Assembly (NCBI GenBank): GCA_021081985.1
Contig: GCA_021081985.1_3639.2
Direction: 5' to 3' (one strand)
DNA length: 54,988 nucleotides
Source of the DNA: a phage
Positions 7,054 to 43,619 of the stretch are shown here, piece by piece (within the stretch, counting starts at the first letter, position 1; the number at the start of each line of letters is the position of its first letter). Below the pieces are notes generated by a model. That model had not been told where the DNA came from. It worked only from the letters and a program-made list of their open reading frames with translations, and searched no databases. The position numbers and the translations under genes were made by a program.

Positions 7054-8358
7054 CTACTTACCAGGGAAAGTCTCTTCATAAAACTTAACAAGACGTTGAT
7101 CAACGATAATATCTTTATCCCTGATCCTACGTAATAACCTTAATCCTTTTGCACTTGTTGCTCTGCTAAAAGCCACGTATGCCATGCCTGGTGCAAAAGT
7201 CCCATTGCCAAAGTCAACATTAACTTCCGGTAATGTTAATCCTTGTGCTTTGTGTATTGTAACAGCCCACCCAAGACGAATCGGCAAAGCCCTGTACTCA
7301 CCAATGATAATCTTCTCAATTTCTTCAGTTATTGTACCATCTGGGTTTTTCACCTTTATGGGGTTATACTCAACATTTTCCCACACATAAGGTTCTACGT
7401 CAACAATATCCCCATTTTCAAGACGGACTCTAACACTGTATCTACGTAGTTCAACAATCTCTCCACGGGAACCATTCACATAACTTGGTTCCTCCAGTCC
7501 TTTAGGGTCATTGACAGTAATCATCACCTGCGCCCCCTCTTTCAGGTACAACTCTTCCGGCACAGGTGTCTGGTTAAATTGCCCTGTCTTTTTTGCCTTG
7601 TAAACTGTTGGGATTCCAGGTATTGCATCAAAACGTTTTTTGTTTATTTTGTCTGCTGCTGCGTTTGTTGAGGTTATTGTTATAGCATCCAATGGTTTTC
7701 CCATGTTGTAGCAATAAGTATTCATAAACTCAACAATCTCTGGAATACGCTCTCCCTTGCGAAGGCAATTAAGAAGTGTTGAAAAATGAACACTACTTTG
7801 CCTGTAGATTTTATCAAGAAATACAGGATATGGGTTCAATTCTTTCCATGTTTTAGAAAAGCAACAAAGTTCTGTGTCGTGGAACTGGTAGTATATCTCT
7901 TTTTCTTCACTTTTTAAAACAGGTGGATTCTGTAAGAAATCCCCGAACATACACACCTGCAAACCACCGAAAGGCTCTTTGGGTTTTTTACGTGCCAGAC
8001 GACATTTCATGTCCATTTCCCAGAGTTTGTCTGCCCTGAACATACTTATCTCTTCAATAATAAGAATCTTCAGTGCTTTACTTTTAAGCAACTTCTTAGC
8101 CTTTGCCTTTATTTCCTCTGCATCTTTTTTAGTGGACACGCCTAATGAAAGTCCGAAAGCTCTGTGTGCTGTCATACCATCCACATTAATGGCAGCAGCC
8201 CCTGTAGGGGCCACTGTCAAAACTGAGCCTGCGTATAAGGATTGGATAGTTTTTATAGTATGACTCTTTCCAGCACCTGCATAACCACTGATAAACACAT
8301 TCTCACCTGACATTATAGCGCCGAGAGCATCTTCAACGCCAACCCCGTATTGAGACAT
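7054..8358 (-). CDS. dda: Dda-like SF1B DNA helicase (RecD/Pif1 family)
   Basis: 434 aa; Walker A GYAGAGKSH near the N-terminus, Walker-B-like LIIEEISM, C-terminal GWAVTIHKAQGLT and AYVAFSRAT motifs typical of Dda/RecD helicases. Confidence 0.7.
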   Translation of the reverse strand: MSQYGVGVEDALGAIMSGENVFISGYAGAGKSHTIKTIQSLYAGSVLTVAPTGAAAINVDGMTAHRAFGLSLGVSTKKDAEEIKAKAKKLLKSKALKILIIEEISMFRADKLWEMDMKCRLARKKPKEPFGGLQVCMFGDFLQNPPVLKSEEKEIYYQFHDTELCCFSKTWKELNPYPVFLDKIYRQSSVHFSTLLNCLRKGERIPEIVEFMNTYCYNMGKPLDAITITSTNAAADKINKKRFDAIPGIPTVYKAKKTGQFNQTPVPEELYLKEGAQVMITVNDPKGLEEPSYVNGSRGEIVELRRYSVRVRLENGDIVDVEPYVWENVEYNPIKVKNPDGTITEEIEKIIIGEYRALPIRLGWAVTIHKAQGLTLPEVNVDFGNGTFAPGMAYVAFSRATSAKGLRLLRRIRDKDIIVDQRLVKFYEETFPGK

Positions 8359-9371: not shown

Positions 9372-11343
9372 TAAATTTACGATACTCTAGCATCTCTGGA
9401 GTATTGAAATGCCTAATATTAATGTATTTTAACAATGGGTAGCGATCTTTCTTAATTTGTAGCAGCTTTTTACCAATTCTCTTCTTGGCCTCTATCATCC
9501 ATAATGCTTTCTCACGGCTATCTTCGTAGCCAGGAACTGAACAATAACTGGGCATGTTTACCTTCATCTCCCATTTTGGGAAACTGGCTACCATCACGCC
9601 GAAGTAGCTAAGTTCTTTAACAATGTTATGATACTCATGGTCTTTCCCTACTTCTTGGTATAAATGATATTCAAGAAGGTTAGTTTTTGCAAGAGCATGA
9701 ATATCCTCCTCAGTTATAACCCGTGCCTCATCTGGCAGCCAACTTGATCTGTTTAAAGGCACAATATATAACTTACCAACCACACCGAGATTCTTGAGAA
9801 ATGTTGGTGGTTGCTTTCTCCAAGATGTTCTAAGATTGGAAACGTATCCTAACGGGCATAATCCTTTCACCTGCCCACCCCAGTATACCATAGCCGCCTC
9901 AATATCTTCAAATTGAGCACGGGAAATACGGGTTACATCTACGGAGCCATCTTGGTTGATTATCCAAACTTTATGACCTGGTTCGTAATAACCATAGCCA
10001 CCATACTTTTTATCTGCTTTTTGCACTGGTCGTTTTTCAAGTTCAGATAACTTGAAAATCATCCCTTCAAAGAATTTATCACTGTATAAGGACAGAGCGT
10101 AATCAGCATCGGTTATAAATGATCTCTTACCAAACTTCTCTGCGAGCCAGTTACATTTAGAGCGCACATACTTGTGATCATCATTGTAAACCAGTGGATG
10201 ACCATTCATCAACTCTGCGTATGAATATCTCTCATCCTTACCACGGCGTGAGCCTTCGCCACCATATGTTTCACAGTAATCTATGTAAGAACCATCAGTA
10301 TAATTCTTGAACTTATTTGCAATAAAAGCAGCACCATATTTTGTAGCGAAATAACCACCAACATATTTCATATGTTCAAGAACTGCTTTTAAAGTTGGCA
10401 GATCGCTTAATTCTTTTGTAATTTCTTCTCCACGAAGTCGGATAGCTTTCGTCACAAAACTTTCAAGTTTATCACGGAATCCTCCGTCATTCTTTCCTTC
10501 TACTGTCCATTCTCGGCCTGGGTCTACATTACAATCCCCAATAGGGATAGATACCGTCATCATGGGCAGTTCTTTACGAGTCGAGAGATAATCAGAGAGA
10601 TATGGTTGTTGCCCCATGATGACAACACTATCAGCGTTTCTCGACATGCTACTATACATCTCAAGAACCCAGCCAGTCTCCTCATCCTCATAACGATACT
10701 GAACAGGATAAGTACGATCTTCAATCTGCGTTTTAACAAAAGGATCATTAATGATATATGGAAATTTAGCATAGCGAAGGCATTTTACAATAGCCAGACG
10801 ATAAGCTCCTGTTTCCCAAGTGTTTACGTTAAATTTAACCTCTACACCATTCTCCTCTGTTGTTTCACAAGAAAATAAAGGCACAACCTCTGGTATTCCG
10901 CTGTTTTTGTGAACAGAGTATGTTGTTTTCACTCCATCTTTAACAGAAACAACTGTGAACATATCTGTTACTGCAAGAGGTGCTTTTGACCCAATACCTT
11001 TCGCGCCAATCAGATCATTACTGTTTCTTTTTGTGGACTCACCAATCATCATGAATGTACGTGTTACCATCTCATGATCCATACCTAACCCTGTATCCTT
11101 AACAGAATACCAAGGTTCCAAGTCTGTTGGTGAGTGGATGATGATGGGTTTATCAGAACACCCTGCCTCTGTATGAGCATCTACAGCGTTGAAGAGAGGC
11201 TCTCGTACTGCTGCTAAAGTTTTATCTTTATAAATTCCATCGATAAGAATACTGAAAGTCTCAGGATTCATTGCAATTGATGCTTGGTATCTTTCTACGT
11301 TCCCAGTTACCTGGACTTTGTTGTCAGATCTTTGAATAATCAT
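9343..11343 (-). CDS. rIIA: rIIA-like protein with GHKL/HATPase_c ATP-binding domain
   Basis: 666 aa; N-box REPLFNAVDA, G1 box DTGLGMD and G2 box GAKGIGSKA of the GHKL ATPase fold, as in phage rIIA; followed by the rIIB-like gene. Confidence 0.6.
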   Translation of the reverse strand: MIIQRSDNKVQVTGNVERYQASIAMNPETFSILIDGIYKDKTLAAVREPLFNAVDAHTEAGCSDKPIIIHSPTDLEPWYSVKDTGLGMDHEMVTRTFMMIGESTKRNSNDLIGAKGIGSKAPLAVTDMFTVVSVKDGVKTTYSVHKNSGIPEVVPLFSCETTEENGVEVKFNVNTWETGAYRLAIVKCLRYAKFPYIINDPFVKTQIEDRTYPVQYRYEDEETGWVLEMYSSMSRNADSVVIMGQQPYLSDYLSTRKELPMMTVSIPIGDCNVDPGREWTVEGKNDGGFRDKLESFVTKAIRLRGEEITKELSDLPTLKAVLEHMKYVGGYFATKYGAAFIANKFKNYTDGSYIDYCETYGGEGSRRGKDERYSYAELMNGHPLVYNDDHKYVRSKCNWLAEKFGKRSFITDADYALSLYSDKFFEGMIFKLSELEKRPVQKADKKYGGYGYYEPGHKVWIINQDGSVDVTRISRAQFEDIEAAMVYWGGQVKGLCPLGYVSNLRTSWRKQPPTFLKNLGVVGKLYIVPLNRSSWLPDEARVITEEDIHALAKTNLLEYHLYQEVGKDHEYHNIVKELSYFGVMVASFPKWEMKVNMPSYCSVPGYEDSREKALWMIEAKKRIGKKLLQIKKDRYPLLKYINIRHFNTPEMLEYRKFIDNKGEKGE

Positions 11344-11363
11344 TCAATACCTCTATGAACTAA

Positions 11364-11882
11364 TTATGCGTCAGGATGCTTGTAAAAAATATGATTCCCA
11401 ACCTTCACTGTTTTCACCATAACTTTTGCCCAAGATGGCCTAACAGTAGTTGCATGATAGTACGTTGCTGATTTTGTGTAGTCAAGAGCTTTGTATAAAC
11501 TTTTGTGGTCTTTATGCAATCTTATCAATATTTTAGCATAAAATTTAGCTCTTAACCATCTATCCTTTTCATAGACTTTAAAGGATTGCCCACCGAATGT
11601 CCAAGAGAATTGCCCTCGCTGATAAACTATTTTCTTGATAGTATGCGGGAAATTCTTGTCATCTTTTCTATTCAATGTGACAAAAGCGACACCCATCATT
11701 CCATAATCACCTTCTCCTCTTCCCTCTTTATACAAGTTACAGGCAAGAATATTAAGCTCTGTATCATTCTTCTTGCAAATGTGAAGAACTTGGGGCTTCT
11801 TTGCACTTTCTTTGGCTAGAACAGGGGTAATAGACAGAGAAAGTGCACAGCAAACTGCAAATAATAAAGATCTTATTTTCAA
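11364..11882 (-). CDS. Cell wall hydrolase, SleB/CwlJ (Hydrolase_2) family, with N-terminal signal peptide; proposed TTG start
   Basis: LYKEGRGEG, GVAFVTLNR and RGQFSW motifs match the SleB-family signature. With a TTG start the N-terminus is MKIRSLLFAVCCALSLSITPVLA, preceded by GGAG; the ORF-track start at 11987 would run through the upstream intergenic hairpin. Confidence 0.6.
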   Translation of the reverse strand: MKIRSLLFAVCCALSLSITPVLAKESAKKPQVLHICKKNDTELNILACNLYKEGRGEGDYGMMGVAFVTLNRKDDKNFPHTIKKIVYQRGQFSWTFGGQSFKVYEKDRWLRAKFYAKILIRLHKDHKSLYKALDYTKSATYYHATTVRPSWAKVMVKTVKVGNHIFYKHPDA

Positions 11883-11923
11883 AACTAACTCCAGACAAAT
11901 AAGCCCCATAAAGGGGCTTTCTG

Positions 11924-12268
11924 TTAGCGATGGAAACGAATATCTCCAGACACTGTGTTTACACTTCCATGGATTGTATTTGCGCAAACATCACCAGACA
12001 CCGAAGATACATTGCCTAAGATATCTTTCTCAACATTAATATCCCCAGATGTTGAGATCACACCATTAGAGACATTTCCATAAACATTGATACCACCTGA
12101 TGTTGTACGTACCTCTTTAGCATCACCTTTGATAATAACTGTAATGTTTTTATCGTTTGTGGTATGAACTAAATCACCATTGATATAGACATTATCACCC
12201 TTAGTGGTGATAGAGATACTACCATTGGTATAGTTTCCAGAAATTGTATTACCATTAATCGTAATCAT
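11924..12268 (-). CDS. Beta-solenoid repeat protein (bactofilin-like), start trimmed to MITINGNT
   Basis: Repeating G-x-V/I-S-G-D-I/V units (GNVSNGVISTSGDINV, GNVSSVSGDV, GSVNTVSGDI); the N-terminal 36 aa of the ORF-track call look like out-of-frame readthrough. Confidence 0.4.
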   Translation of the reverse strand: MITINGNTISGNYTNGSISITTKGDNVYINGDLVHTTNDKNITVIIKGDAKEVRTTSGGINVYGNVSNGVISTSGDINVEKDILGNVSSVSGDVCANTIHGSVNTVSGDIRFHR

Positions 12269-12443
12269 TGTTTTGTTTCTCTTTAACAATAGGTGCTTTC
12301 TGAACAGAGTATACAAATGTTTTATTGTCTTCAATAAACTTTCTGCCCTGTTCTTCATCTTCAAAAATAATTGTGTCACACTTTGCCTTTAACATACCAC
12401 GTTCTACAGTTGTGTGTGTCGTAGAAACAATTAAAGCCATCAA
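12255..12443 (-). CDS. Hypothetical small protein
   Basis: 62-aa ORF between the RNA ligase and repeat-protein genes. Confidence 0.3.
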   Translation of the reverse strand: MMALIVSTTHTTVERGMLKAKCDTIIFEDEEQGRKFIEDNKTFVYSVQKAPIVKEKQNNDYD

Positions 12444-13474
12444 AACACCTCGTTAAGTTGTTCCATGTACCAACTACGGGCTTTATTTGTTGTAAATTTT
12501 GCCACGTCTTTCATAGAAAGAGAATTGGCTTCTAACACATCTGCTTCTTCTTTGTTGATATCGCGGTTAACCCATGCGATAAATGCCCCCAGAGATGCGA
12601 TGTCCAATCCAATTTCTTGCAACCCTTGTCGTAAACGGTTCTCAGTAACTGCATACTCCACAAAATCTTTGATAGATTGCAGTTTCACAGGATCAACGGC
12701 AGCCAGTGTTTTCACTTTAGAGACAGAATGTTTTTGCCCTTTCACTTTAAACCAAAGTGCAGAAACATGTGCCAAGTGGCGATCTTTAGGTGTCCATACC
12801 ACACCCTCACCAACACCAGATACGCCAAAATATTTACCTACTGGGCACTCTTTTTCTACACCTTCGGTAATCTGTGCAATTTCTGATTGCACTGTCTCTG
12901 GCATGTTAAAAGGAATATCCAGTTCCCACTTACCAAAAGTTAAAATATTATAAATACGTTGTTCTGGTAATCCAATGCCAAGAATATCGTCTAAGGCTAA
13001 CCATTTTCGATGGTCATTCTCTTTTCCTACTGCCACACGGAAAATAGTAAAGAAAGGCATGATTTCAGATACCGCAACACCTTTCTGGATACCTTTTCCT
13101 GAAAATTCCCCAGCAATTTCTACTGGGAACTTAAATTCAATACCCCGATCTTCGCAGATCTGCTTGACTTGCTCCAACAGGGGTTTATGGTCTTTTTCAA
13201 CCATAAAGGCCATAAACCCATAATTATCTTCTTCCAAAGACAAAACGCGTTCTTTGGACTGGTACACAACCTCATCTTCAGAATTAAAGACTACACGGCA
13301 ATTAGTCCCGTGAATTTTAACTGTTCCTACATAAGAAATGAGATATTGATCTGGAGAGGCAACCTTACGCTTTATATTGCCATTCTCATCACGACCATCA
13401 TAAGTCAGACGGTCATTAACCGCTCGGATAACGTTGCGAAATTGACTAGTGCTTGGGTACTTAGTTGCTTGCAT
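12440..13474 (-). CDS. RNA ligase, Rnl2-like (ATP-dependent nucleotidyltransferase)
   Basis: 344 aa; motif I lysine in VKIHGTN (the KxHGxN adenylylation motif of T4 Rnl2); size matches the Rnl2 family. Confidence 0.65.
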   Translation of the reverse strand: MQATKYPSTSQFRNVIRAVNDRLTYDGRDENGNIKRKVASPDQYLISYVGTVKIHGTNCRVVFNSEDEVVYQSKERVLSLEEDNYGFMAFMVEKDHKPLLEQVKQICEDRGIEFKFPVEIAGEFSGKGIQKGVAVSEIMPFFTIFRVAVGKENDHRKWLALDDILGIGLPEQRIYNILTFGKWELDIPFNMPETVQSEIAQITEGVEKECPVGKYFGVSGVGEGVVWTPKDRHLAHVSALWFKVKGQKHSVSKVKTLAAVDPVKLQSIKDFVEYAVTENRLRQGLQEIGLDIASLGAFIAWVNRDINKEEADVLEANSLSMKDVAKFTTNKARSWYMEQLNEVF

Positions 13475-13847
13475 TACTATCTTCCTTATTAATAAAGGTC
13501 ACACCAAGAGTGGCCTGGGCAAGAAGTTTCGTGATCTCCTGGCTCCATACAGGACTGGAGATAAAATGTTGTAATTGGAGGCTACCTAAGCGATAGGCGC
13601 TGTTCATCGTAATAGCATAGATTTCTCCATCGTGCATAATCATGCTTTCGACAACAGAAGTCCTGATATTAGAACCACTAAATCCACGCTTTTTGAGGTC
13701 ATCTGCTAAGTATCCGCAGATACAACGCACATCTTTTGTATAACCAAAACCGAAATAGGGTTCAGCACCAAACAGGATACCAGCGTATCTCTTCCCACAG
13801 ACATAGGTATCTTTAGATACGCCTGTTACAGATTTACTTTCCATCAT
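13461..13847 (-). CDS. Hypothetical protein
   Basis: 128-aa ORF; no motif recognised. Confidence 0.35.
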   Translation of the reverse strand: MMESKSVTGVSKDTYVCGKRYAGILFGAEPYFGFGYTKDVRCICGYLADDLKKRGFSGSNIRTSVVESMIMHDGEIYAITMNSAYRLGSLQLQHFISSPVWSQEITKLLAQATLGVTFINKEDSNASN

Positions 13848-14029
13848 TGTCCCTCCACATCGTCAATATCTTCCATACCATCTTGCCACAGAACTTCATA
13901 GCAAGCGTCATAAATTGCGCTCATAGCATCTTTACGATCTAACACATCTACAATTTTTGGATCAATACTTTTAATTGCTTCCGCAATTTTATCGTAAGCA
14001 ATATCAGGATGCATGTTCTTTTTTGCCAT
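13844..14029 (-). CDS. Hypothetical small protein
   Basis: 61-aa acidic ORF, translationally coupled to neighbours. Confidence 0.3.
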   Translation of the reverse strand: MAKKNMHPDIAYDKIAEAIKSIDPKIVDVLDRKDAMSAIYDACYEVLWQDGMEDIDDVEGQ

Positions 14030-14525
14030 CTGGGATCTCCTCTTCGTTTAAGACATAAATTGTCACATCACAATCATGGAGAACAGATTCTATCATAGTT
14101 TCTATGATTTTCCAATCCCCACCTGCTAGTCCAGCACCTATTTTTGGCAGCCCGATCTTATAATCAGACATAAAGCCATCTGTGTGCCTTTGCAAACAAT
14201 CTCGCATTGCTGCTAAAGAATCGTAAAGGGCGTTATAATTCAGATCCCTCACACCCATTCTACGCCCATTATAGCCGTATTGTGTGTACAGATTAAAACC
14301 CGCCAGCTTACCTTCGTTCATGACAGCCCAAGTATAACTGCCCAGTTTTGTTCGATCACCTTTCTCTGTCTTTAAATCTTCAGCATACATTTTTGGGAAT
14401 GTATTCTTTATTTCTTTAGCAATTCCAGACCCCATGGTGCAAAATGTATTACAACCATGAGCTATCACATTAACATCCCTTTTAAGTGCTGCCTCTATTA
14501 AGCAACCAACTTTATACTTAAGCAT
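14004..14525 (-). CDS. Macro-domain protein (ADP-ribose binding/processing), start trimmed to MLKYKV
   Basis: VIAHGCNTFCTMGSGIAKEIK glycine-rich ADP-ribose-binding signature and C-terminal GLPKIGAGLAGGDW match macro-domain proteins. Confidence 0.55.
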   Translation of the reverse strand: MLKYKVGCLIEAALKRDVNVIAHGCNTFCTMGSGIAKEIKNTFPKMYAEDLKTEKGDRTKLGSYTWAVMNEGKLAGFNLYTQYGYNGRRMGVRDLNYNALYDSLAAMRDCLQRHTDGFMSDYKIGLPKIGAGLAGGDWKIIETMIESVLHDCDVTIYVLNEEEIPDGKKEHAS

Positions 14526-14700
14526 TGTCTGATACCTCTTCGCATTCGTATGGATAGATATCCAGTCTTTTCCCATTCCATTCGCAAGAGTAACACTCAA
14601 GAAAACTACCATTAAATATTTCTTCTCTTACTTCAAGAATATCTCCTGTTTTTGGATATCCATCAACATCCGAAAAATCAGAAATCATTTTAACCTTCAT
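14518..14700 (-). CDS. Hypothetical small protein
   Basis: 60-aa ORF; its ATG overlaps the upstream stop as ATGA. Confidence 0.3.
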   Translation of the reverse strand: MKVKMISDFSDVDGYPKTGDILEVREEIFNGSFLECYSCEWNGKRLDIYPYECEEVSDNA

Positions 14701-14873
14701 TCACAACTCCTTTCAAGGAAGGCATTCATACTTTCCAATGCCTCGCTTTTATTTTTAGCACAAACAACAAACACACGCTTATTTTTATAGGTGTACCCAG
14801 CCATAACCATATCGGATCTTTCAATCCACCATTTCTCATGTAGCTGGTCTTTCTTAAATTTATGTTTTGCCAT
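14697..14873 (-). CDS. Hypothetical small protein (58 aa, not in the ORF track)
   Basis: Translated by hand as MAKHKFKKDQLHEKWWIERSDMVMAGYTYKNKRVFVVCAKNKSEALESMNAFLERSCE; ATGA overlaps at both ends. Confidence 0.3.
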   Translation of the reverse strand: MAKHKFKKDQLHEKWWIERSDMVMAGYTYKNKRVFVVCAKNKSEALESMNAFLERSCE

Positions 14874-15289
14874 CAACGATTATACCATACCACATGTGTG
14901 GCCCAGTCTGGCTTTTTATCCCATACTGAAACGTCAGATTCATAGCTATCGTTAGGACACCAGTATCCATTCCCATCTTCAGGGCTAAAAATCGCCGCTT
15001 GGACACCGAAATTCCAATCATCAAGATCCATCACCTTAGCTCCAGCGGTCTTAAAATTAGCATCTGTTTTAAAATGCTCTTTCAGAAGATTACTGACAGA
15101 TGGCATAGGCATATAAGCAATGACAGGCTCACAATCAAAGTAGAAAGACCCATTGATAACATGAACAATACTGTTAAATCCTTGATAGGATTCACAAATA
15201 CCGATCTCACCATCTGCCAAAACGACAAGCCATCTACCAACATCAAGATCTTTAACACCATTTGGTGTTTTTATCCACATATCATTCAT
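14873..15289 (-). CDS. Hypothetical protein, possibly DUF551-like
   Basis: 138 aa; W-I-K-T-P and VIAYMPMPS resemble the DUF551 pattern. Weak. Confidence 0.35.
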   Translation of the reverse strand: MNDMWIKTPNGVKDLDVGRWLVVLADGEIGICESYQGFNSIVHVINGSFYFDCEPVIAYMPMPSVSNLLKEHFKTDANFKTAGAKVMDLDDWNFGVQAAIFSPEDGNGYWCPNDSYESDVSVWDKKPDWATHVVWYNR

Positions 15290-15329
15290 TCAGGTATTCC
15301 TGGGAAAAGCAGCCATTAGGCTGCTGCTA

Positions 15330-16538
15330 TTAATTTAAAATTGCATCTACATCTTTTGCAAAGTTCTTGTGATATTCAGTAATAATCTGCATGACGACAG
15401 GATACTTCTTAAGTAACTTCGCTGGCAGTCTGTCACGAAGGCCATCTAACAAAATACCCTTCCCTGTGGAACTGTCATTAATAAACGTCATGAAGACAGA
15501 TGATACAAAATCGCGGTTGGAATGAGCATCATCTTTACCAAAGTTATCATACAGATATTGCAAGAAATTGGCTGAGAAGTCAATAACCTGATCATCTGTG
15601 TAGTTGGTATTCTTCATAGCCTTACGTAGCCAGATGCAACCTTGTGATCCTAGCGTCCACAATACATCAGAGCTATCAGAGCCAGTGTGTTCCTTAATTG
15701 AACCATCCATTACTTTCTCAATGGGGACCATATCAGCAACGCGAGTATGGTAATACCATAACTCTTTCATTAACGGCCCACCAATACACCCTTGCAAAGC
15801 AGCCATTGCAAGACGGGAAGTAAGATCACCATCCTCATACGCATACAGAATATCACTTGCAGTAACCCAAGTTCGTGGTGTGGCATATGCAGGACTGTTA
15901 ATCTCATACATGGCCTCGAAGTTTTCCAGTTTATCGGGATTGGCTTGGATAAAACCAATTACTGATGGATGCACATTTTTACGCAACGCATAATCCTGCA
16001 TCCACACAGAGGCATCGTAATCAAGTTCCACAACAATAAAACGGTTAGCCAAAGGAGCTTCCATCATGGTAACTGCTGTACCATCACCAGGACGGTTCCC
16101 TGCCGCTGCAAAAACTGCACCTTTTGGAAAGGTGTACTTACCAATTTTATGATCCAAAACAATCTGGAAAGCTACTTTCTGTAAGTAGTTATCAGCATGT
16201 AAAAGTTCATCAAGGAAAATAATACCTTCCCAATCTGGGTCTTCTGGCCAGAAATCTGGTAGCGCATAGACTGTACGTGTTTTTCCATTGTCGTCTGTTA
16301 CAGGAATCTGTACACCTACTACGTCTGTCGGATCTTTATCCGCAAGACGAAAATCAACGAGATTATCATCTCGTTCACCAAACATCTCATTGGCAACTTG
16401 CTTCATGACTTGACTCTTACCAAGCCCAGCACCACCAAACATCATAAGTGCTTTGTTTGCCTTCTTACAAAATTTCATGAGGCTTGGAATATCACGAAGT
16501 GTAACACGATGATCTTCAAAAATATTTCTACTAGACAT
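15330..16538 (-). CDS. AAA+ ATPase, MoxR/AAA_5-like
   Basis: 402 aa; Walker A GGAGLGKS, Walker B IIFLDELLHA, sensor AAAGNRPGDG; the architecture usually partnered with VWA proteins. Confidence 0.7.
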   Translation of the reverse strand: MSSRNIFEDHRVTLRDIPSLMKFCKKANKALMMFGGAGLGKSQVMKQVANEMFGERDDNLVDFRLADKDPTDVVGVQIPVTDDNGKTRTVYALPDFWPEDPDWEGIIFLDELLHADNYLQKVAFQIVLDHKIGKYTFPKGAVFAAAGNRPGDGTAVTMMEAPLANRFIVVELDYDASVWMQDYALRKNVHPSVIGFIQANPDKLENFEAMYEINSPAYATPRTWVTASDILYAYEDGDLTSRLAMAALQGCIGGPLMKELWYYHTRVADMVPIEKVMDGSIKEHTGSDSSDVLWTLGSQGCIWLRKAMKNTNYTDDQVIDFSANFLQYLYDNFGKDDAHSNRDFVSSVFMTFINDSSTGKGILLDGLRDRLPAKLLKKYPVVMQIITEYHKNFAKDVDAILN

Positions 16539-16773
16539 TCGTCTCGTTCCTTAAATCGTTCTTCTGCTCAAGATAACTTTCAATGATACTGTCTATATCT
16601 GCTGATTCAATATCAGCATACAGATTTGTAATACTTGATGCAAGGTCTTTGGCAGAAAAATTGTCTACTCTTTCTGCACCAAAAACTAAAAACCATTGTC
16701 GTCGTGTCATCCTCGCTCTAACAACGGTTTTTAAATACTCCGCTCTCTCTGAAAAATCAAGAGGTTTTACCAC
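16531..16773 (-). CDS. Hypothetical protein
   Basis: 80-aa ORF. Confidence 0.3.
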   Translation of the reverse strand: MVKPLDFSERAEYLKTVVRARMTRRQWFLVFGAERVDNFSAKDLASSITNLYADIESADIDSIIESYLEQKNDLRNETNV

Positions 16774-17123
16774 TTATCCACCCAAACTCTGTTCTCATCA
16801 CACCAGTCGTAGAACTCGTTCAAAGCTAGATTGAACTGCTGTAGAGGACTCACGATAAGGTTGGGGTTATCTTCTTTGCTACAGATTTCCAAGTATTCTT
16901 CATATGTGAGAATATGCTGCATTTCTTCAAGAATATCATACAACCACCCATCGAAGTCAGCATTCTCTTCATCAGTTTGCTTTGGTAAAAGTCGTTTTAC
17001 TCTTTTTACAAGCATGTCCACAAACAGGTGAATATTATCATCTGCCCAAGGCTCTACCTTACCTTCTACGGGATTACCTTTCCAGATATCACGTAAATCA
17101 AGTCGATGTTTCCACTGTGCCAT
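16767..17123 (-). CDS. Hypothetical protein
   Basis: 118-aa ORF, Trp-rich. Confidence 0.35.
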   Translation of the reverse strand: MAQWKHRLDLRDIWKGNPVEGKVEPWADDNIHLFVDMLVKRVKRLLPKQTDEENADFDGWLYDILEEMQHILTYEEYLEICSKEDNPNLIVSPLQQFNLALNEFYDWCDENRVWVDKW

Positions 17124-17124
17124 T

Positions 17125-17319
17125 TTATAACTCCTTAACAGATTCTAAATCAAGATATTCATCACCACCCACTCGTTTACCGTCTTTCTTACGGTATTTT
17201 GCCTTGCTTTCAAATGCTACCCAATAAGCACCTTCATCTTTTAACTTGTCTTCCCATACCCAACCGAACTGCTTTTTCCTAATGGTTCCTTTGTGGGTAT
17301 ATTGTTGTTTACAATACAT
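17125..17319 (-). CDS. Hypothetical small protein
   Basis: 64-aa basic ORF. Confidence 0.3.
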   Translation of the reverse strand: MYCKQQYTHKGTIRKKQFGWVWEDKLKDEGAYWVAFESKAKYRKKDGKRVGGDEYLDLESVKEL

Positions 17320-17320
17320 C

Positions 17321-17536
17321 CTAATCCTCCCATTTTATCCATAAAGGGTATTCTGCAACATGCACTTTCTTACCCTTTTTGTTAATAAAAGTATACTCAA
17401 CAAACTTTGCTATGTAAAACCTATTGTAATCCTCTGTACCTTTAACAGGACAGTCTGTTTTCCTTATCTCCACCCATTCTCTGTGGATCACCGCTTTGTT
17501 CTTTGGATCAAATGGATGTGGTTGATAAACATTCAT
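17321..17536 (-). CDS. Hypothetical small protein
   Basis: 71-aa ORF. Confidence 0.3.
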   Translation of the reverse strand: MNVYQPHPFDPKNKAVIHREWVEIRKTDCPVKGTEDYNRFYIAKFVEYTFINKKGKKVHVAEYPLWIKWED

Positions 17537-18033
17537 TATTTCCCCTCGAATCTTTTTCTTGCATCAGCAAGTTTAAGATGCATTTCATGGTATTTCTTTA
17601 ACCTTGCCAAATCCTTATCTGATAAGGATTTAAGACGTTTTACGTCCATATTGTCTTTTAAATCAGCGAGTTTTACACGAATCGCATCATAATTAGTACA
17701 GATGCCCTCAATGTACTCTTCTTCAGTCAGGCTCTGTTTCTTTGTTAGCAGAAGAACTGCATCTTTTACTCTGTTAGTGAACCCTAACATTACCAAATCG
17801 TAAGCTGTAACTTTAGTATCCTCAAGGATATCGTGAAGGACACCGATTGCCATTAGCTGTAAGTCATCATTACCAAGTTCATGCATCACCCTTAATGGGT
17901 GAAGAATGTAGGGCATTCCACCACGATCTTTTTGCTTAAGATGGTTTTCAGAGGCCAATTTTATAGCTAAAGCCAACTCCTGATGGGGTCTTAAATCTTG
18001 CATGTTACTGGGGACAGACTTCGATTGTGCCAT
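17536..18033 (-). CDS. HD-domain hydrolase, Mesh1/SpoT-like small alarmone hydrolase
   Basis: 165 aa; PYILHPLRV, VLHDILEDT and VKLADLKDN are arranged like the His/Asp metal ligands of the RelA/SpoT hydrolase domain. Confidence 0.65.
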   Translation of the reverse strand: MAQSKSVPSNMQDLRPHQELALAIKLASENHLKQKDRGGMPYILHPLRVMHELGNDDLQLMAIGVLHDILEDTKVTAYDLVMLGFTNRVKDAVLLLTKKQSLTEEEYIEGICTNYDAIRVKLADLKDNMDVKRLKSLSDKDLARLKKYHEMHLKLADARKRFEGK

Positions 18034-18851
18034 TCATATGCCTCTTGCATGTTAAAGGGTTTTATACCAATATTATCAAAATCTACAAGAGAATCAAGAA
18101 AAAATTCTCCTTTGTACCCAGCCATTTCTATCATTAAGCGTTCCTCTTGGGTAGGGATCTCCCCCAAAATAAGCTCTTTTAGCTCTTTTTCTACAACACG
18201 ATGATACATTACTTCCTGGGTATTACACACCAAGTAGTAGTGCGACTTCTTATTCTCTGCGTTTGGCGTGTTGGTTATCTTAATTCCAGCATGGTCTACA
18301 TAATCATACATCTTTGTTTGGTAACGCATTCCATAACAACCTACCAGGGAAAAGGGTCCACAACTGGAATTAATCTCCCTGATGTGGAGAATATCTGGGT
18401 TTGTTCTGACATAGGAAGCCTTTATGGAAAACATATTACCATCCCAATGCCCCAATTGGGACAAAACAGACAGGAATTTTTGTGTTCGTGCAGACAATGA
18501 TCTTGCTAAACACATTCCATAATTAAAGCCTTGGAAAGAGATTGTTATTTGCCCACAAGTAATATCATAGCTTGAAAACTCATGCGTTAAGTTTACGCTT
18601 GCCATGTAAGCACGCTCGTCAGCTTCAACATAATATTTCCAGTAGCATTTCCTATCCCGAGTATCAAAACACATAAGCACAGCATGTTTTATGAGTTCTA
18701 TTAAAGGGTTTGGTTCATGGTGGCGACTTTCAACTTCCCTTATAATGGCTTCACGGAGTACATTAAAATCTATTTTCATAGATTTTGTGTGATGCAGGTA
18801 GGCATCAAAGTAAGAAGAAATGTTTTCGTCAGGTATCTTTGCCATGGTCAA
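17991..18851 (-). CDS. Hypothetical protein
   Basis: 286-aa ORF upstream of the HD hydrolase; no motif recognised. Confidence 0.4.
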   Translation of the reverse strand: MTMAKIPDENISSYFDAYLHHTKSMKIDFNVLREAIIREVESRHHEPNPLIELIKHAVLMCFDTRDRKCYWKYYVEADERAYMASVNLTHEFSSYDITCGQITISFQGFNYGMCLARSLSARTQKFLSVLSQLGHWDGNMFSIKASYVRTNPDILHIREINSSCGPFSLVGCYGMRYQTKMYDYVDHAGIKITNTPNAENKKSHYYLVCNTQEVMYHRVVEKELKELILGEIPTQEERLMIEMAGYKGEFFLDSLVDFDNIGIKPFNMQEAYEWHNRSLSPVTCKI

Positions 18852-18917
18852 ACTCCAAAAATATTTTCATTGGTTATGAGGAATGTACAGAACTAAAAAA
18901 CAAAAGTCAACACTTGA

Positions 18918-18947
18918 CAAACTGAAAATTTGTGAGATACTACGAAT
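18918..18947 (+). promoter_or_regulatory. Putative promoter TTGACA-17-GATACT in the divergent intergenic region
   Basis: Lies between the minus-strand block ending at 18851 and the plus-strand gene starting at 18975. Confidence 0.35.
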
Positions 18948-18974
18948 ACAAGTTAAGCGACAGAGATATTCTGT

Positions 18975-19772
18975 ATGGACTGGAATAAAGAGTTTACAAC
19001 CAAAGAGATAAGGTATCTCAAAACACGACTCTTTTTCAAAAAGAGGAATACCAAAGCGAGAGGTATAGAGTTCAATCTGACAGAAGATGACTGGTTTATG
19101 ATGGGCAACGGATTACTTGGGAAAGGTGTTTGTGATTACACAGGCCTACCTTTTTCTGCGACACCTAATGACCCCCTCTACCCGTCTGTTGAACGAATAG
19201 ATGACAAAAAAGGGTATGTTCGTGGAAACGTTTGTGTAGTCGGTAAGAGAGCAAACCAGTTAAAAGATTTTCTTGTAGACAAAAAGAAAGCTCTAACGAT
19301 TGTAGATCCACTCGACATGGATATCGTCCAAGGAATGATGTTAAATATGTCAAAGGATCACTTGGAAAAGTTAAAACTTAAATACATACCTACGGAAACA
19401 GATATGAAAGAGACAGAGAACGTAATTATTGATGAGCAGGTTGAAGAGATGAAAGAAAAATCTCTTCCTGACGATGTTGAAATTGCACTTGCATACGCAA
19501 ACTACTGTAAAACATTTGCGGAAGCAGGTATGAATGTTAGCGTTACGTATGCACAATTTAAGGCTAAATATTCAAGAAACACCTGTTCTCTAACAGGGGA
19601 GAAGTTAACAAAAACACCAAAACCTATTCTCATTATGGATTTAGATCTTGGGTTCGCAAAAGACAACTTTATTATTGTTTCTGAAAAGATGGAAACAGCA
19701 TTAACACAACTCATGATCAATACGAAAATGAGTTTACCAAAAATCACAGCTATGCTGAATAAGGTGGTTTAA
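18975..19772 (+). CDS. HNH/AP2-like putative homing endonuclease with a duplicated module
   Basis: 265 aa; two copies of a C-x2-TG ... ID ... G-Y/F ... N module (CDYTGLPF...ERIDDKKGYVRGNV and CSLTGEKL...MDLDLGFAKDNF). Residues are degenerate relative to canonical HNH. Confidence 0.4.
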   Translation: MDWNKEFTTKEIRYLKTRLFFKKRNTKARGIEFNLTEDDWFMMGNGLLGKGVCDYTGLPFSATPNDPLYPSVERIDDKKGYVRGNVCVVGKRANQLKDFLVDKKKALTIVDPLDMDIVQGMMLNMSKDHLEKLKLKYIPTETDMKETENVIIDEQVEEMKEKSLPDDVEIALAYANYCKTFAEAGMNVSVTYAQFKAKYSRNTCSLTGEKLTKTPKPILIMDLDLGFAKDNFIIVSEKMETALTQLMINTKMSLPKITAMLNKVV

Positions 19773-34892: not shown

Positions 34893-34923
34893 TCTCTTAC
34901 AACCGCACAAAGTAAAATTGTAC

Positions 34924-34952
34924 AAAGGGCGCTTAATGCGCCCTTTCTTTTT
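34924..34952 (+). terminator. Rho-independent terminator ending the plus-strand early cluster
   Basis: GGGCGC-TTAAT-GCGCCC followed by TTTCTTTTT. Confidence 0.6.
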
Positions 34953-42316: not shown

Positions 42317-42565
42317 TTAAAGATTTTGATAAGAATAATTTATTACGCCGGACCAGTTTTTTTTTTCTTCATGCAACCCTCGCTTGTGCCTGTACATTGC
42401 TAAAGGCCATACAGAACTCACTATAAAGCATTTCCATGCCCAACCCCATGGAGTCTTTGGTGCATAAGCTCGTTCAAGCCATTTACTCTTTTCCATCTCT
42501 GCCGTATGTACAAACCATACGGCAATATACAGTGCAACTATAATGTAGATAAAGCCATTAATCAT
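42317..42565 (-). CDS. Small membrane protein
   Basis: 82 aa; hydrophobic N-terminus MINGFIYIIVALYIAVWFV. Confidence 0.3.
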   Translation of the reverse strand: MINGFIYIIVALYIAVWFVHTAEMEKSKWLERAYAPKTPWGWAWKCFIVSSVWPLAMYRHKRGLHEEKKNWSGVINYSYQNL

Positions 42566-43619
42566 TCATCTTATCCCAACACATTTGTTGTGCTGTCATC
42601 AAAACATCGGCAGCAAAGTTAAGATCTGTTGTCTTCGGTAAATGCGTGTTCTTGTACAGAGTGTTACGAATATAATCATCCTTCTCTTCTGCCCAAGCCA
42701 AGAGCTTCTCCAAAGACCATGCACCATTTCTGATTGCAAGAAGCTCCTGAGCATCAGGTCTTTTTACAAGAACTTTCCCTTCCGTCAGGATTTCTTCTGC
42801 TTGTCGCATCAACCTAACCAAGTGCATACCATGCTTTGAATCGAAGCCATACTTTTCTTCTAACTCATGACGTGCTGGGTTTCTGTTTTCAACCCATGTC
42901 CAGTAGTTCTTATGCTTTTCCTTTGCTTGTTTATGGTCATCTGCTAGATACTTAACGATTAAAATTGGTTTACGTTTCTTATCCTCGCCAGAGAACTGTT
43001 CGTATGGGACTTTACGAATAGAGCCGTCAGAGTTAAACAAGCCAGCATTGTCGTGTGTTCCGATCACGCCATAGATATTATCACCCATTGGTAAAAAGAC
43101 ACACAACTTGTTAAGGTCATCCAGCATTTTCTGGAAGTCTTTGTGTTTTGTAAGATTATCATCCATCCACGAGTGTGTCAAGCGCATGAACTCTTTTTGT
43201 GTTGGTTGCTCTTTAGGCTGCGGGTTATTAATCCATTTATTATGGCCTTTGATACGCTTCAGTTGCGCCATCGCGTACCCAGAAAATGTAAAAGCAACTT
43301 TGCTGGATAGGAGTTTTGGCGCTTGCTCGCGTAGGTACTCGTAAACATCTGAAGTTTGCAGAATGTCACCTCTATCAACAAACATAAGCTCGATGATGTT
43401 TGGGTTCATATCAACGAACAACTTCATGTAGTTTGTTAGCTCATACAGCTTACCATCCTCTTCATCAATAAGAGTCATTTCTCTGTCAACGAAAAATGGG
43501 GTAAGAATGCTTTTAGGCTCTGCACAATAAATTCCGCGAATATCCACATCGGATGTTGGTAAGTTAGTTCCATAGGCAATACTACCGGAGTAACAACGCA
43601 TTAGTTCTAGTTTCTTCAT
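42558..43619 (-). CDS. Pol-beta superfamily nucleotidyltransferase
   Basis: 353 aa; N-terminal G-S-x4-G-T-x4-S-D-V-D-I (GSIAYGTNLPTSDVDI), the minimal NTase signature shared by OAS/CD-NTase-like and RNA-modifying NTases. Confidence 0.55.
   Translation of the reverse strand: MKKLELMRCYSGSIAYGTNLPTSDVDIRGIYCAEPKSILTPFFVDREMTLIDEEDGKLYELTNYMKLFVDMNPNIIELMFVDRGDILQTSDVYEYLREQAPKLLSSKVAFTFSGYAMAQLKRIKGHNKWINNPQPKEQPTQKEFMRLTHSWMDDNLTKHKDFQKMLDDLNKLCVFLPMGDNIYGVIGTHDNAGLFNSDGSIRKVPYEQFSGEDKKRKPILIVKYLADDHKQAKEKHKNYWTWVENRNPARHELEEKYGFDSKHGMHLVRLMRQAEEILTEGKVLVKRPDAQELLAIRNGAWSLEKLLAWAEEKDDYIRNTLYKNTHLPKTTDLNFAADVLMTAQQMCWDKMND

What the first reader, a model, noticed from the sequence alone, without database searches (positions are those of the whole stretch)
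12440..14525. Rnl2-like RNA ligase close to a macro-domain protein
An RNA ligase with the KIHGTN adenylylation motif lies about 500 nt from a macro-domain protein on the same strand. In eukaryotic tRNA splicing, ligation is followed by 2'-phosphate removal that generates ADP-ribose derivatives processed by macro domains. A phage pairing could reflect an RNA repair pathway or an anti-ADP-ribosylation function. No polynucleotide kinase/phosphatase was recognised nearby, so how ligatable ends would be made is open.
Basis: partly seen in the sequence, partly recalled or inferred. Interest (0 to 1): 0.55.

Follow-up and report, generated by a model that had tools for sequence, protein, structure and literature searches.

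The report
Phage RNA ligase beside macrodomain gene
An rV5-like E. coli phage carries a T4-Rnl2-type RNA ligase and, two small genes upstream, a macrodomain related to the T4 anti-DarT2 protein; they look like two separate counter-defence genes rather than one RNA-splicing-style pathway.

Summary
On the minus strand lie an Rnl2-family RNA ligase (12440-13474, KIHGTN at residues 53-58) and a macrodomain protein (14004-14525). The 529 nt between them hold two overlapping small genes.

The window is about 96% identical to Escherichia phage Av-05 (Vequintavirinae), where both genes are already annotated.

The proposed Tpt1-type RNA-splicing link is not supported:
- No Tpt1/KptA, polynucleotide kinase, 2H or metallophosphoesterase was found in the window, and none is annotated in Av-05.
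- The ligase is Rnl2-type, not Trl1-type.
- The macrodomain belongs to the SCO6735/BT_1257/T4 Tk.4 subclass. Its tested members remove DarT-made ADP-ribose from DNA thymidine, and T4 Tk.4 is needed against DarTG2. SCO6735 is inactive on phosphate-linked ADP-ribosylated RNA.

The adjacency is confined to rV5-like phages, and either gene can be absent without the other.

One new point: the 128-aa gene just upstream of the ligase (13461-13847) matches an N-terminal extension fused to the ligase in other phages. It is probably a split-off ligase module of unknown role.

Most likely these are two independent counter-defence genes. Interest is low to moderate.

The parts
12440..13474 (-). Rnl2-family ATP-dependent RNA ligase, 344 aa. 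Nucleotidyltransferase domain about residues 45-250 plus an Rnl2-type helical C-terminal domain about residues 255-344.
   Evidence: Pfam PF09414 1.3e-9; phrog_548 7.5e-73. Invariant K53/H55/G56/T57/N58, E123, F145, E223-G224, K243/K245, R280 and D305 in 41 homologs. Family profile aligns to T4 Rnl2 2hvq residues 35-332 at 3.8e-10. TIGR02307 6e-10.
13461..13847 (-). 128-aa beta-barrel-plus-helices protein; a probable split-off N-terminal module of the ligase. It overlaps the ligase start by 14 nt.
13844..14029 (-). 61-aa ORF of unknown function between the macrodomain gene and the 128-aa gene.
   Evidence: phrog_35483, unknown function. Found in only 2 of 80 related ligase loci, so it is a variable filler gene.
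14004..14525 (-). Stand-alone macrodomain protein, 173 aa, of the ALC1-like class, SCO6735/BT_1257/T4 Tk.4 (AdfM) subclass.
   Evidence: Start codon set from the sequence. phrog_335 3e-62, the same PHROG as T4 Tk.4. Family profile against PDB: BT_1257 1e-21, SCO6735 5e-19, TARG1 2e-15, Poa1p 1e-12, DarG 1e-10. 35% identity and E 2e-24 to T4 Tk.4. H23, N26, G32-S-G34, Q82 and G130/G132 are conserved.
17536..18033 (-). HD-domain small alarmone hydrolase-like protein. Context gene, not part of the pair.
   Evidence: PDB 7smg (p)ppApp hydrolase 8.5e-26. Its family lies within 10 kb of the ligase in 18 of 80 loci.
42558..43619 (-). RlaP-family (RNA-ligase-associated Pol-beta) nucleotidyltransferase. 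A distant candidate RNA-repair partner.
   Evidence: Pfam PF10127 7.7e-14. RlaP adds 1-2 nucleotides to the 3'-OH of damaged RNA (PMC12776372).
45449..46705 (-). CCA-adding enzyme (PolyA_pol head domain) with an HD phosphohydrolase domain. A distant candidate for tRNA 3'-end repair or end healing.
   Evidence: Pfam PF01743 9.7e-22, PF01966 HD 1.5e-7, PF12627.

Best explanation
The ligase and the macrodomain are two separate counter-defence enzymes that sit in the same early, accessory gene string of an rV5-like myovirus.

(1) The ligase is an ATP-dependent Rnl2-family RNA ligase. It forms a Lys53-AMP intermediate and seals 3'-OH/5'-phosphate nicks in base-paired RNA. Its likely use is repair of host or phage RNA, probably tRNA or another structured RNA, cut during infection. 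The 128-aa protein encoded just upstream is probably a detached N-terminal module of this ligase. It is inferred to bind the ligase or its substrate.

(2) The macrodomain is an ADP-ribosyl hydrolase of the SCO6735/T4 Tk.4 (AdfM) type. Its most likely job is to strip the ADP-ribose that DarT2-type toxins put on thymidines of single-stranded phage DNA, so that replication can continue.

Shown here: family membership, conserved catalytic-site residues, the split/fused relation between the 128-aa gene and the ligase, the distribution of the gene neighbourhood, and the absence of Tpt1 and known end-healing genes. Inferred: all substrates and the in vivo roles.
For: Ligase:
- Motifs I, III, IIIa, IV and V are invariant in 41 homologs.
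- The family profile aligns along the whole of T4 Rnl2, including the C-terminal domain.
- The model of homolog P0056 (47% identical, pLDDT 89) hits T4 Rnl2 first at 2e-10. Rnl5, Rnl3 and REL1 follow, and Trl1 ranks far lower.
- In other phages the family sits beside T4 Rnl1-like ligases (19 of 80 loci), AAA_33 kinases (13) and metallophosphoesterases (10). It is fused to a metallophosphoesterase in P0031/P0033. This is an RNA-repair context.

128-aa gene:
- It is homologous to the N-terminal extension of fused ligases.
- The fused form occurs in Salmonella phage SSBI34, Acinetobacter phage ABPH49 and others.

Macrodomain:
- It shares a PHROG with T4 Tk.4 and is 35% identical to it. T4 Tk.4 is required for growth on DarTG2 hosts (preprint 10.1101/2025.11.20.689424).
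- SCO6735 (5e-19) removes DarT-made ADP-ribose from thymidine and rescues E. coli from DarT. Its H24, N27, Q85 and G128, which were probed by mutagenesis, are conserved here as H23, N26, Q82 and G130/G132 (PMC9411070).
- A PhiKZ macrodomain, also named AdfM, does the same job (PMC13309987).

Independence of the two genes:
- The macrodomain lies within 10 kb in only 12 of 80 ligase loci.
- This ligase lies in 7 of 80 macrodomain loci.
- Homologs occur in 3004 phage records for the macrodomain against 269 for the ligase.
- L090/L091 have the macrodomain and the 128-aa homolog but no ligase. L168 has the fused ligase but no macrodomain.
- In L149 the macrodomain sits among Dam, Lar-like and N6/N4 methylase genes and an Rnl1 gene, a mixed counter-defence island.
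Against: - No activity was measured, and substrate specificity within macrodomain subclasses is not predictable from sequence.
- The family profile also matches the ADP-ribose-1''-phosphate phosphatase Poa1p (1e-12) and TARG1 (2e-15).
- The window protein has the long 'mobile loop' of SCO6735/BT_1257, which T4 Tk.4 lacks.
- Within rV5-like phages, from Escherichia to Acinetobacter, the order macrodomain then ligase is kept while the ligases diverge to about 47% identity.
- This macrodomain family lies within 10 kb of some RNA-repair gene in 17 of 54 dereplicated lineages. A functional link is therefore not excluded.
- No enzyme that would make ligatable ends was found, so the ligase's in vivo substrate is unknown. 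The role of T4 Rnl2 itself is also unknown (PMC3884662).
- The 128-aa homolog persists next to the macrodomain in phages that lack the ligase. This weakens the view that it is purely a ligase module.
Confidence: 0.55

Rival explanations
1. The macrodomain, the 128-aa protein and the ligase form one RNA-repair module. The macrodomain would remove ADP-ribose from damaged or capped RNA, or clear an ADP-ribose by-product. The 128-aa barrel would target the RNA, and the ligase would reseal it.
For: - Gene order is conserved and the genes overlap across rV5-like phages, including direct abutment of the macrodomain gene with the fused ligase in SSBI34 and ABPH49.
- The 128-aa homolog stays beside the macrodomain even where the ligase is absent.
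- Members of this macrodomain family lie within 10 kb of Rnl1, kinase or metallophosphoesterase genes in several other lineages.
- The literature already proposes macro domains as part of KptA-2H RNA repair (PMC9503650).
Against: - No KptA/Tpt1 or 2H gene is present.
- SCO6735 is inactive on 5'-phospho-ADP-ribosylated RNA and DNA (PMC11833690).
- The adjacency is confined to one syntenic phage group, with independent losses of each gene.
- T4 carries both families far apart in its genome (tk.4 beside vs and tk; rnlB location from general knowledge).
- 68 of 80 ligase loci have no macrodomain nearby.
Confidence: 0.15
2. The macrodomain processes soluble ADP-ribose derivatives rather than modified DNA. 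Candidates are ADP-ribose-1''-phosphate, O-acetyl-ADP-ribose or signalling molecules. This would blunt NAD-based immunity or feed NAD+ reconstitution. The ligase would be unrelated.
For: - The family profile matches Poa1p at 1e-12.
- A comparative analysis argues that most phage macro domains act on small ADP-ribose derivatives (PMC9503650).
- Av-05 and a related contig encode an adjacent Nampt-like and Prs-like gene pair. Calling this pair a NAD+ reconstitution pathway is my reading, not tested.
Against: - The closer relatives (SCO6735, T4 Tk.4) have demonstrated DNA or DarT2-related roles.
- The residues that position thymidine-linked ADP-ribose in SCO6735 are conserved.
- The Nampt/Prs pair is not in the window and not near the macrodomain.
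Confidence: 0.2
3. The ligase serves phage DNA replication or recombination rather than RNA repair, by sealing nicks whose 3'-OH strand ends in ribonucleotides.
For: - T4 Rnl2 seals hybrid nicks with an RNA 3'-OH strand and DNA 5'-phosphate and template strands (PMC3884662).
- ATP-dependent DNA ligase is the gene most often near this ligase family, in 23 of 80 loci.
- No full-length DNA ligase was detected in the window.
Against: - The gene is dispensable in many related phages: only 11 Escherichia records hold a match to it, and it is absent from L090/L091.
- Its fusions and neighbours are RNA end-healing enzymes.
Confidence: 0.05

Closest known systems
Bacteriophage T4 RNA ligase 2 (gp24.1, RnlB; PDB 2hvq/2hvr/1s68)
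   Same: - Same two-domain plan: a nucleotidyltransferase domain plus a helical C-terminal domain.
- Identical motif I, KIHGTN; motifs III, IV and V are conserved.
- The family profile aligns over T4 residues 35-332, and T4 Rnl2 is the top structural match.
- The family's invariant R280 and D305 align with R and D in the T4 C-terminal domain (chain positions 267 and 293).
   Different: - Only about 17-18% identity by structure alignment, and about 25% by tblastn to T4-like RnlB.
- It scores far below the TIGR02307 equivalog cut-off, 39 against 197 bits.
- It has about 30 extra N-terminal residues.
- It has a partner or fused N-terminal beta-barrel module that T4 Rnl2 lacks.
- The residue aligned with T4 D120 in motif IIIa is not conserved.
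- It has not been characterised biochemically, as far as I found.
T4 Tk.4 (AdfM, anti-DarT factor macrodomain)
   Same: - Same PHROG (335), 35% identity over 159 residues, E 2e-24.
- Shared IAHGCN, MGSG(I/V)A, FNLYTQ and P(K/R)IGAG motifs.
- Both are stand-alone proteins of about 155-173 aa encoded in an early gene region.
   Different: - T4 Tk.4 lacks the 6-residue longer loop after the conserved Gln.
- It sits beside vs and tk, not beside an RNA ligase.
- The anti-DarTG2 role is shown for T4 only, in a preprint. It has not been shown for this protein.
Streptomyces coelicolor SCO6735 and Bacteroides BT_1257 (ALC1-like macrodomains; PDB 5e3b, 2fg1/2afc)
   Same: - These are the best solved-structure matches (5e-19 and 1e-21).
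- Gln occupies the position of the catalytic Lys of TARG1 and DarG.
- The His and Asn of the HxCN motif and the GxGLAGG loop are conserved, and the long mobile loop is present.
   Different: - Cellular rather than phage proteins, about 24-26% identical.
- SCO6735 is linked to a DNA-damage-type promoter and to antibiotic production, not to phage infection (PMC9411070).
DarG antitoxin macrodomain / PhiKZ gp104 AdfM
   Same: The same macrodomain class and the same proposed job, reversing DarT2 ADP-ribosylation of thymidine (PMC13309987). There is an NCBIfam DarG hit at 1e-9 over the macro part.
   Different: - The catalytic Lys (DarG K80) is replaced by Gln.
- There is no C-terminal DarT-binding domain.
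- It scores 38 bits against the DarG cut-off of 250.
- Similarity to PhiKZ gp104 is weak, 17 bits.
Rnl5 ligases (Deinococcus DraRnl, Naegleria NgrRnl) with an N-terminal module
   Same: These are nick-sealing RNA ligases whose distinctive N-terminal module is needed for nick sealing and adenylylation (PMC1807946). This is a precedent for an N-terminal accessory domain such as the 128-aa module.
   Different: - Rnl5 enzymes lack the Rnl2 C-terminal domain.
- Here the module is a separate polypeptide.
Yeast Trl1-Tpt1-Poa1p tRNA splicing chain
   Same: An RNA ligase and a Poa1p-related macrodomain are both present; the family profile matches Poa1p at 1e-12.
   Different: - No Tpt1, no cyclic phosphodiesterase and no kinase are present.
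- The ligase is not Trl1-type: Trl1 matches are 2e-4 to 1e-3 against 2e-10 for Rnl2.
- Poa1p is a weaker match than SCO6735, BT_1257 and TARG1.

Membership tests
Rnl2 family of RNA ligases (T4 Rnl2 / kinetoplastid REL1) | Motif I KxHGxN with the lysine that becomes adenylylated | tested here: met
   K53-I-H-G-T-N58 in the window protein. K53, H55, G56, T57 and N58 are invariant in 41 homologs.
Rnl2 family of RNA ligases (T4 Rnl2 / kinetoplastid REL1) | Nucleotidyltransferase motifs III, IIIa, IV and V | tested here: met
   E123 (III), F142/F145 (IIIa), E223-G224 (IV) and K243/K245 (V) are invariant or nearly so. They align with T4 E99, F119, E204 and K225/K227. The Asp that follows the motif IIIa Phe in T4 is not conserved.
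Rnl2 family of RNA ligases (T4 Rnl2 / kinetoplastid REL1) | Rnl2-specific helical C-terminal domain, required for step 2 on nicked duplexes (PMC3884662) | tested here: met
   The profile alignment continues to T4 residue 332. The homolog model has four C-terminal helices, and full-length 2hvq/2hvr are the top Foldseek hits.
Rnl2 family of RNA ligases (T4 Rnl2 / kinetoplastid REL1) | NCBIfam TIGR02307 equivalog score | tested here: not met
   39.1 bits against a cut-off of 197. This is a divergent subfamily, not an equivalog of T4 RnlB.
Rnl2 family of RNA ligases (T4 Rnl2 / kinetoplastid REL1) | Sealing of 3'-OH/5'-PO4 nicks in duplex RNA | not testable with these tools
   Needs an enzyme assay.
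Macrodomain, ALC1-like class, SCO6735/BT_1257/T4 Tk.4 subclass | Macro fold recognised by profile | tested here: met
   Pfam alone is borderline, 21.7 against 22 bits. The family profile hits 15 solved macrodomain sequences, the best at 1e-21.
Macrodomain, ALC1-like class, SCO6735/BT_1257/T4 Tk.4 subclass | Active-site residues of SCO6735 (H24, N27, Q85 in place of the catalytic Lys, G126/G128 loop) | tested here: met
   Window H23, N26, Q82 and G130/G132. They are invariant in 35 homologs (that numbering is one lower). The roles of the SCO6735 residues come from PMC9411070.
Macrodomain, ALC1-like class, SCO6735/BT_1257/T4 Tk.4 subclass | Mobile loop longer than in TARG1 and DarG | tested here: met
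   TARG1 needs a 6-residue gap against the family profile after the conserved Gln. The loop QYGYNGRRMGVRD is present in the window protein; T4 Tk.4 has the short form.
Macrodomain, ALC1-like class, SCO6735/BT_1257/T4 Tk.4 subclass | Hydrolysis of thymidine-linked ADP-ribose on DNA; protection from DarT2 | not testable with these tools
   Shown for SCO6735, T4 Tk.4 and PhiKZ gp104 only.
DarG antitoxin | Catalytic lysine (K80), C-terminal DarT-binding domain and the NF048014 score | tested here: not met
   Gln occupies the Lys position. The protein is 173 aa with no second domain. It scores 38 bits against a cut-off of 250.
Trl1-Tpt1-Poa1p type RNA splicing/repair pathway | A Tpt1/KptA 2'-phosphotransferase encoded with the ligase | tested here: not met
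   No such Pfam hit at E<=1e-3 among the window ORFs that were scanned. The two helicase-type ORFs at 1881-3881 and 7054-8358 were not scanned. None is named in the annotated part of Av-05 that was read, bases 1-115930 of 120938.
Trl1-Tpt1-Poa1p type RNA splicing/repair pathway | End-healing kinase and cyclic phosphodiesterase or phosphatase | tested here: not met
   HMMs built from the kinase, metallophosphoesterase, putative 2H and Rnl1 genes of related phages found nothing in the window or in Av-05 bases 1-115930 at E<=1. Pfam scans were also negative.
Trl1-Tpt1-Poa1p type RNA splicing/repair pathway | Trl1-type ligase that needs and leaves a 2'-phosphate | tested here: not met
   Trl1 ligase domains rank far below Rnl2, 2e-4 to 1e-3 against 2e-10.
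Rnl5 (DraRnl/NgrRnl) ligases | OB-like N-terminal module and no C-terminal domain | tested here: not met

The most novel reading that the evidence does not exclude
The macrodomain, the 128-aa beta-barrel and the Rnl2-type ligase act together as an undescribed nucleic-acid repair module of rV5-like phages. In this reading, removal of ADP-ribose from damaged RNA, or from RNA/DNA hybrid ends, is coupled to resealing, and the barrel acts as a targeting subunit that can be fused to the ligase or stand alone.
Probability: 0.1. Interest if true: 0.7.

Novelty: new member of a known kind. Interest (0 to 1): 0.3.

Why it matters
Both proteins belong to known families and are already named in the RefSeq record of the closest phage, so the pairing itself is not a discovery.

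Three points have modest value.
- The macrodomain can now be filed with T4 Tk.4/AdfM and SCO6735. That gives a concrete, testable prediction: rV5-like phages resist DarTG2 through this gene.
- This divergent Rnl2 subfamily comes with a variable N-terminal partner. It is either the 128-aa barrel (separate or fused) or a metallophosphoesterase (fused). The first is an undescribed accessory module. The second is a direct link between an Rnl2 enzyme and RNA end healing.
- The biological role of phage Rnl2 enzymes is still unknown (PMC3884662). A phage that has Rnl2 but no Rnl1 and no Pnkp is a cleaner system in which to look for it.

Tried and rejected
- Promoter and terminator consensus scan of 11000-19200: 23 promoter-like sites against 24.3 expected, so it says nothing about operon structure.
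- The exhaustive search with the 128-aa protein returned long repeat proteins (decapeptide/pentapeptide repeats, DUF5979). I treat these as compositional artefacts.
- Alignment A5 spread the stand-alone 128-aa homologs across the ligase columns and was discarded. The fused model used A6 instead.
The afdb50 fold library was unavailable.
- PhiKZ AdfM is only remotely similar to this macrodomain (17 bits), so it serves as a functional analogy, not as a close relative.
- The idea that the macrodomain uncaps ADP-ribosylated RNA 5'-phosphates to make ligatable ends was considered. I marked it down because SCO6735 is inactive on that substrate.
- The cluster I call '2H-like' (two HxS/T motifs) has no Pfam hit, so that label is only my reading of the sequence.
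- The linker used to concatenate ORFs for Pfam produced spurious 'Serglycin' hits, which I ignored.
- A literature search to confirm that T4 Rnl2 R266 and D292 are essential found nothing. That point rests on my memory and is not used as evidence.
Full report
**What is there**

The window is phage DNA. Bases 12000-15300 are 96% identical to Escherichia phage Av-05 (Vequintavirinae, Avunavirus) and to a few other Escherichia phages. In the RefSeq copy of Av-05 the two genes are already called 'RNA ligase family protein' and 'macro domain-containing protein'.

Everything from about 18.9 kb down to base 1 is transcribed on the minus strand. Read in the direction of transcription, the local gene string is:
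- a MoxR-like ATPase (15330-16538);
- three small ORFs;
- the macrodomain (14004-14525);
- a 61-aa ORF (13844-14029);
- a 128-aa ORF (13461-13847);
- the ligase (12440-13474);
- two small ORFs;
- a SleB-type cell-wall hydrolase, then rIIA, rIIB and a PIF1-type helicase.

The four central genes overlap by 4-26 nt. The macrodomain start is the ATG at 14525, preceded by GAGG. The one correction is that the '500 nt' between the genes is coding.

**The ligase**

- It matches Pfam RNA_ligase and phrog_548.
- There are 2214 relatives in the large protein collection, mostly phage proteins of about 345 aa.
- In an alignment of 41 of them, the signature residues of covalent nucleotidyltransferases are invariant: K53/H55/G56/T57/N58, E123, F145, E223-G224 and K243/K245.
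- A profile of that alignment matches only T4 Rnl2 among solved structures. The match runs over T4 residues 35-332, through the Rnl2-specific C-terminal domain (3.8e-10).
- A model of the 47%-identical homolog P0056 (pLDDT 89) retrieves full-length T4 Rnl2 first (2e-10). Rnl5, Rnl3 and REL1 follow. Fungal Trl1 and DNA ligases rank much lower.
- It is not an equivalog of T4 RnlB: 39 bits against the cut-off of 197.

So it is a divergent member of the Rnl2 family, not a DNA ligase or a capping enzyme. By analogy it should seal 3'-OH/5'-phosphate nicks in base-paired RNA. The biological role of T4 Rnl2 itself is still unknown (PMC3884662).

**A split ligase module**

Some relatives are longer than 345 aa.
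- P0031 and P0033 (about 525 aa) carry an N-terminal calcineurin-like metallophosphoesterase.
- P0038, P0050, P0053, P0054 (Acinetobacter phage ABPH49), P0056 (Salmonella phage SSBI34) and P0114 (455-469 aa) carry an N-terminal extension of about 110-150 aa with no Pfam match.
- That extension is homologous to the window's 128-aa ORF, which lies directly upstream of the ligase (1e-11, 37-38% identity; alignment).

I read it as a detachable N-terminal module of this ligase subfamily. The N-terminal module that Rnl5 ligases need for nick sealing is a precedent (PMC1807946).

Two observations limit this reading.
- Phages L007, L008, L013 and L014 have the ligase without the 128-aa gene.
- Phages L090 and L091 keep a 128-aa homolog right after the macrodomain although they have no ligase.

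**The macrodomain**

- Pfam is borderline, but a profile of 35 homologs hits solved macrodomains strongly: BT_1257 1e-21, SCO6735 5e-19, TARG1 2e-15, Poa1p 1e-12 and DarG 1e-10.
- It is in the same PHROG as T4 Tk.4 and is 35% identical to it (E 2e-24).
- A transposon-sequencing preprint shows that tk.4 is the single T4 gene needed on hosts expressing DarTG2, and names it AdfM.
- SCO6735 removes DarT-made ADP-ribose from thymidine and rescues E. coli from DarT. It uses Gln85 where TARG1 and DarG have the catalytic lysine, together with His24, Asn27 and the Gly126/Gly128 loop. It also has a mobile loop five residues longer (PMC9411070).
- The window protein has all of these features: H23, N26, Q82, G130/G132 and the long loop.
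- SCO6735 is inactive on 5'-phospho-ADP-ribosylated RNA and DNA (PMC11833690).
- A PhiKZ macrodomain with the same anti-DarT2 role is only remotely similar.

The most likely function is therefore removal of base-linked ADP-ribose from phage DNA. This is an inference from homology.

**Are the two genes linked?**

- In 80 viral contigs that encode the ligase family, this macrodomain family lies within 10 kb in 12. Nine of these are rV5-like contigs with the same order and strand, 0.36-1.4 kb apart. Two are Vibrio Thalassavirus-like contigs at 3.7-4.4 kb. One is 7.5 kb downstream.
- SSBI34 and ABPH49 also have the macrodomain abutting the fused ligase. Both share the downstream hydrolase-helicase backbone, so the adjacency there is inherited synteny.
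- In 80 contigs centred on the macrodomain family, this ligase is present in 7.
- After dereplication to 54 lineages, 9 have some RNA ligase within 10 kb and 17 have some RNA-repair-type gene.
- Each gene occurs without the other: L090/L091 lack the ligase, and L168 lacks the macrodomain.
- In the phage genome collection the macrodomain has homologs in 3004 records and the ligase in 269.
- In contig L149 the macrodomain lies among Dam, Lar-like and N6/N4 methylase genes as well as a metallophosphoesterase and an Rnl1 gene. That is a mixed counter-defence island.
- This matches published surveys. Macro domains occur in about 41% of myoviruses and tend to lie in early regions together with host-manipulation and RNA-repair genes (PMC9503650).

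I conclude that the proximity reflects a shared accessory or counter-defence neighbourhood, not a demonstrated pathway. A link is not excluded.

**The missing partners**

What accompanies the ligase family elsewhere is informative: ATP-dependent DNA ligase (23 of 80 loci), T4 Rnl1-like ligase (19), an HD protein (18), an AAA_33 kinase (13), a metallophosphoesterase (10) and a possible 2H-like protein (10). Contig L085 has the order cREC, an ORF, metallophosphoesterase::ligase, PrlF-like, Rnl1, kinase, DNA ligase.

- HMMs built from these families find no Rnl1, kinase, metallophosphoesterase or 2H-like gene in the window or in Av-05 bases 1-115930.
- Pfam scans of nearly all window ORFs find no Tpt1/KptA, kinase or phosphoesterase.
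- The window does hold other RNA-directed genes at a distance: an RlaP nucleotidyltransferase (42558-43619), a CCA-adding enzyme with an HD domain (45449-46705), a weak PTH2-like protein (44394-44891) and a small alarmone hydrolase-like HD protein (17536-18033).

How ligatable ends arise therefore remains open. Either the target breaks already carry 3'-OH and 5'-phosphate ends, or host enzymes or an HD domain do the healing. This is speculation.

**Verdict**

The anti-ADP-ribosylation alternative is favoured. The splicing-like pathway is not supported. The finding is a new member of known kinds. The side result of modest interest is the split or fused N-terminal module, together with the metallophosphoesterase fusions, in a divergent Rnl2 subfamily.

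Noticed in passing
L001 37400-41000 (Av-05 110.0-113.6 kb); window about 22100: The Av-05 record carries a T4-like block (endoribonuclease, vs, a second macrodomain 85% identical to T4 Tk.4, tk, rI) in exactly the T4 gene order. The window lacks this block. It leaves Av-05 colinearity near 22.1 kb and continues with Av-05 13.6-26.8 kb. Either the Av-05 record is rearranged or chimeric, or the window's phage has a different layout.
   Followed up: partly
window 17536-18033 (-): This HD protein resembles a small alarmone hydrolase: PDB 7smg (p)ppApp hydrolase 8.5e-26, plus RelA/SpoT hydrolase domains. Its family lies within 10 kb of the ligase in 18 of 80 loci and of the macrodomain in 13 of 80. 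It is a plausible counter to toxic alarmone synthetases.
   Followed up: partly
window 42558-43619, 44394-44891, 45449-46705 (-): A loose cluster of RNA-directed genes lies about 30 kb from the ligase: an RlaP nucleotidyltransferase (PF10127 7.7e-14), a weak PTH2-like hydrolase (E 0.004) and a CCA-adding enzyme with an HD domain.
   Followed up: partly
window 15330-16538 (-) and 20277-21713 (+): A MoxR-like ATPase (phrog_1297) and a DUF2201 metallopeptidase/VWA protein flank the divergent promoter region. A preprint reports that the MoxR ATPase of the rV5-like phage Bas54 is needed to overcome the predicted defence system DS-28. Homology to that gene was not checked.
   Followed up: no
window 34900-37450: An ORF-poor stretch of about 2.5 kb lies between the convergent plus- and minus-strand gene blocks. 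GC content rises to 0.44. Several short motifs recur in both orientations, for example TTGCAAAATTGTGTCC and TTGTTGTGTGGTG. There is no tRNA and no credible Rfam match. It may correspond to the roughly 2-kb insertion-free intergenic region reported for Bas54. An origin or a regulatory array is possible.
   Followed up: partly
L085 9263-13224; proteins P0031, P0033: Metagenomic relatives fuse a metallophosphoesterase to this Rnl2 subfamily. They place it in a compact cassette with cREC, a PrlF-like protein, Rnl1, an AAA_33 kinase and a DNA ligase, with an Nampt-like/Prs-like pair 5 kb away.
   Followed up: partly
window 49539-50183 (-): This 214-aa protein is annotated in Av-05 as DprA-like. It begins GVGSRETP...GKAEGADAAF and looks like a SLOG/DprA-type Rossmann protein, a class that has been linked to ADP-ribose networks in phages. 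It has no Pfam or NCBIfam hit at the thresholds used.
   Followed up: no
L090 9941-11469; L091: Two phages of about 142-153 kb have the macrodomain followed directly by a homolog of the 128-aa protein and then the SleB-type hydrolase, with no ligase between them. The 128-aa family is therefore not strictly tied to the ligase.
   Followed up: partly
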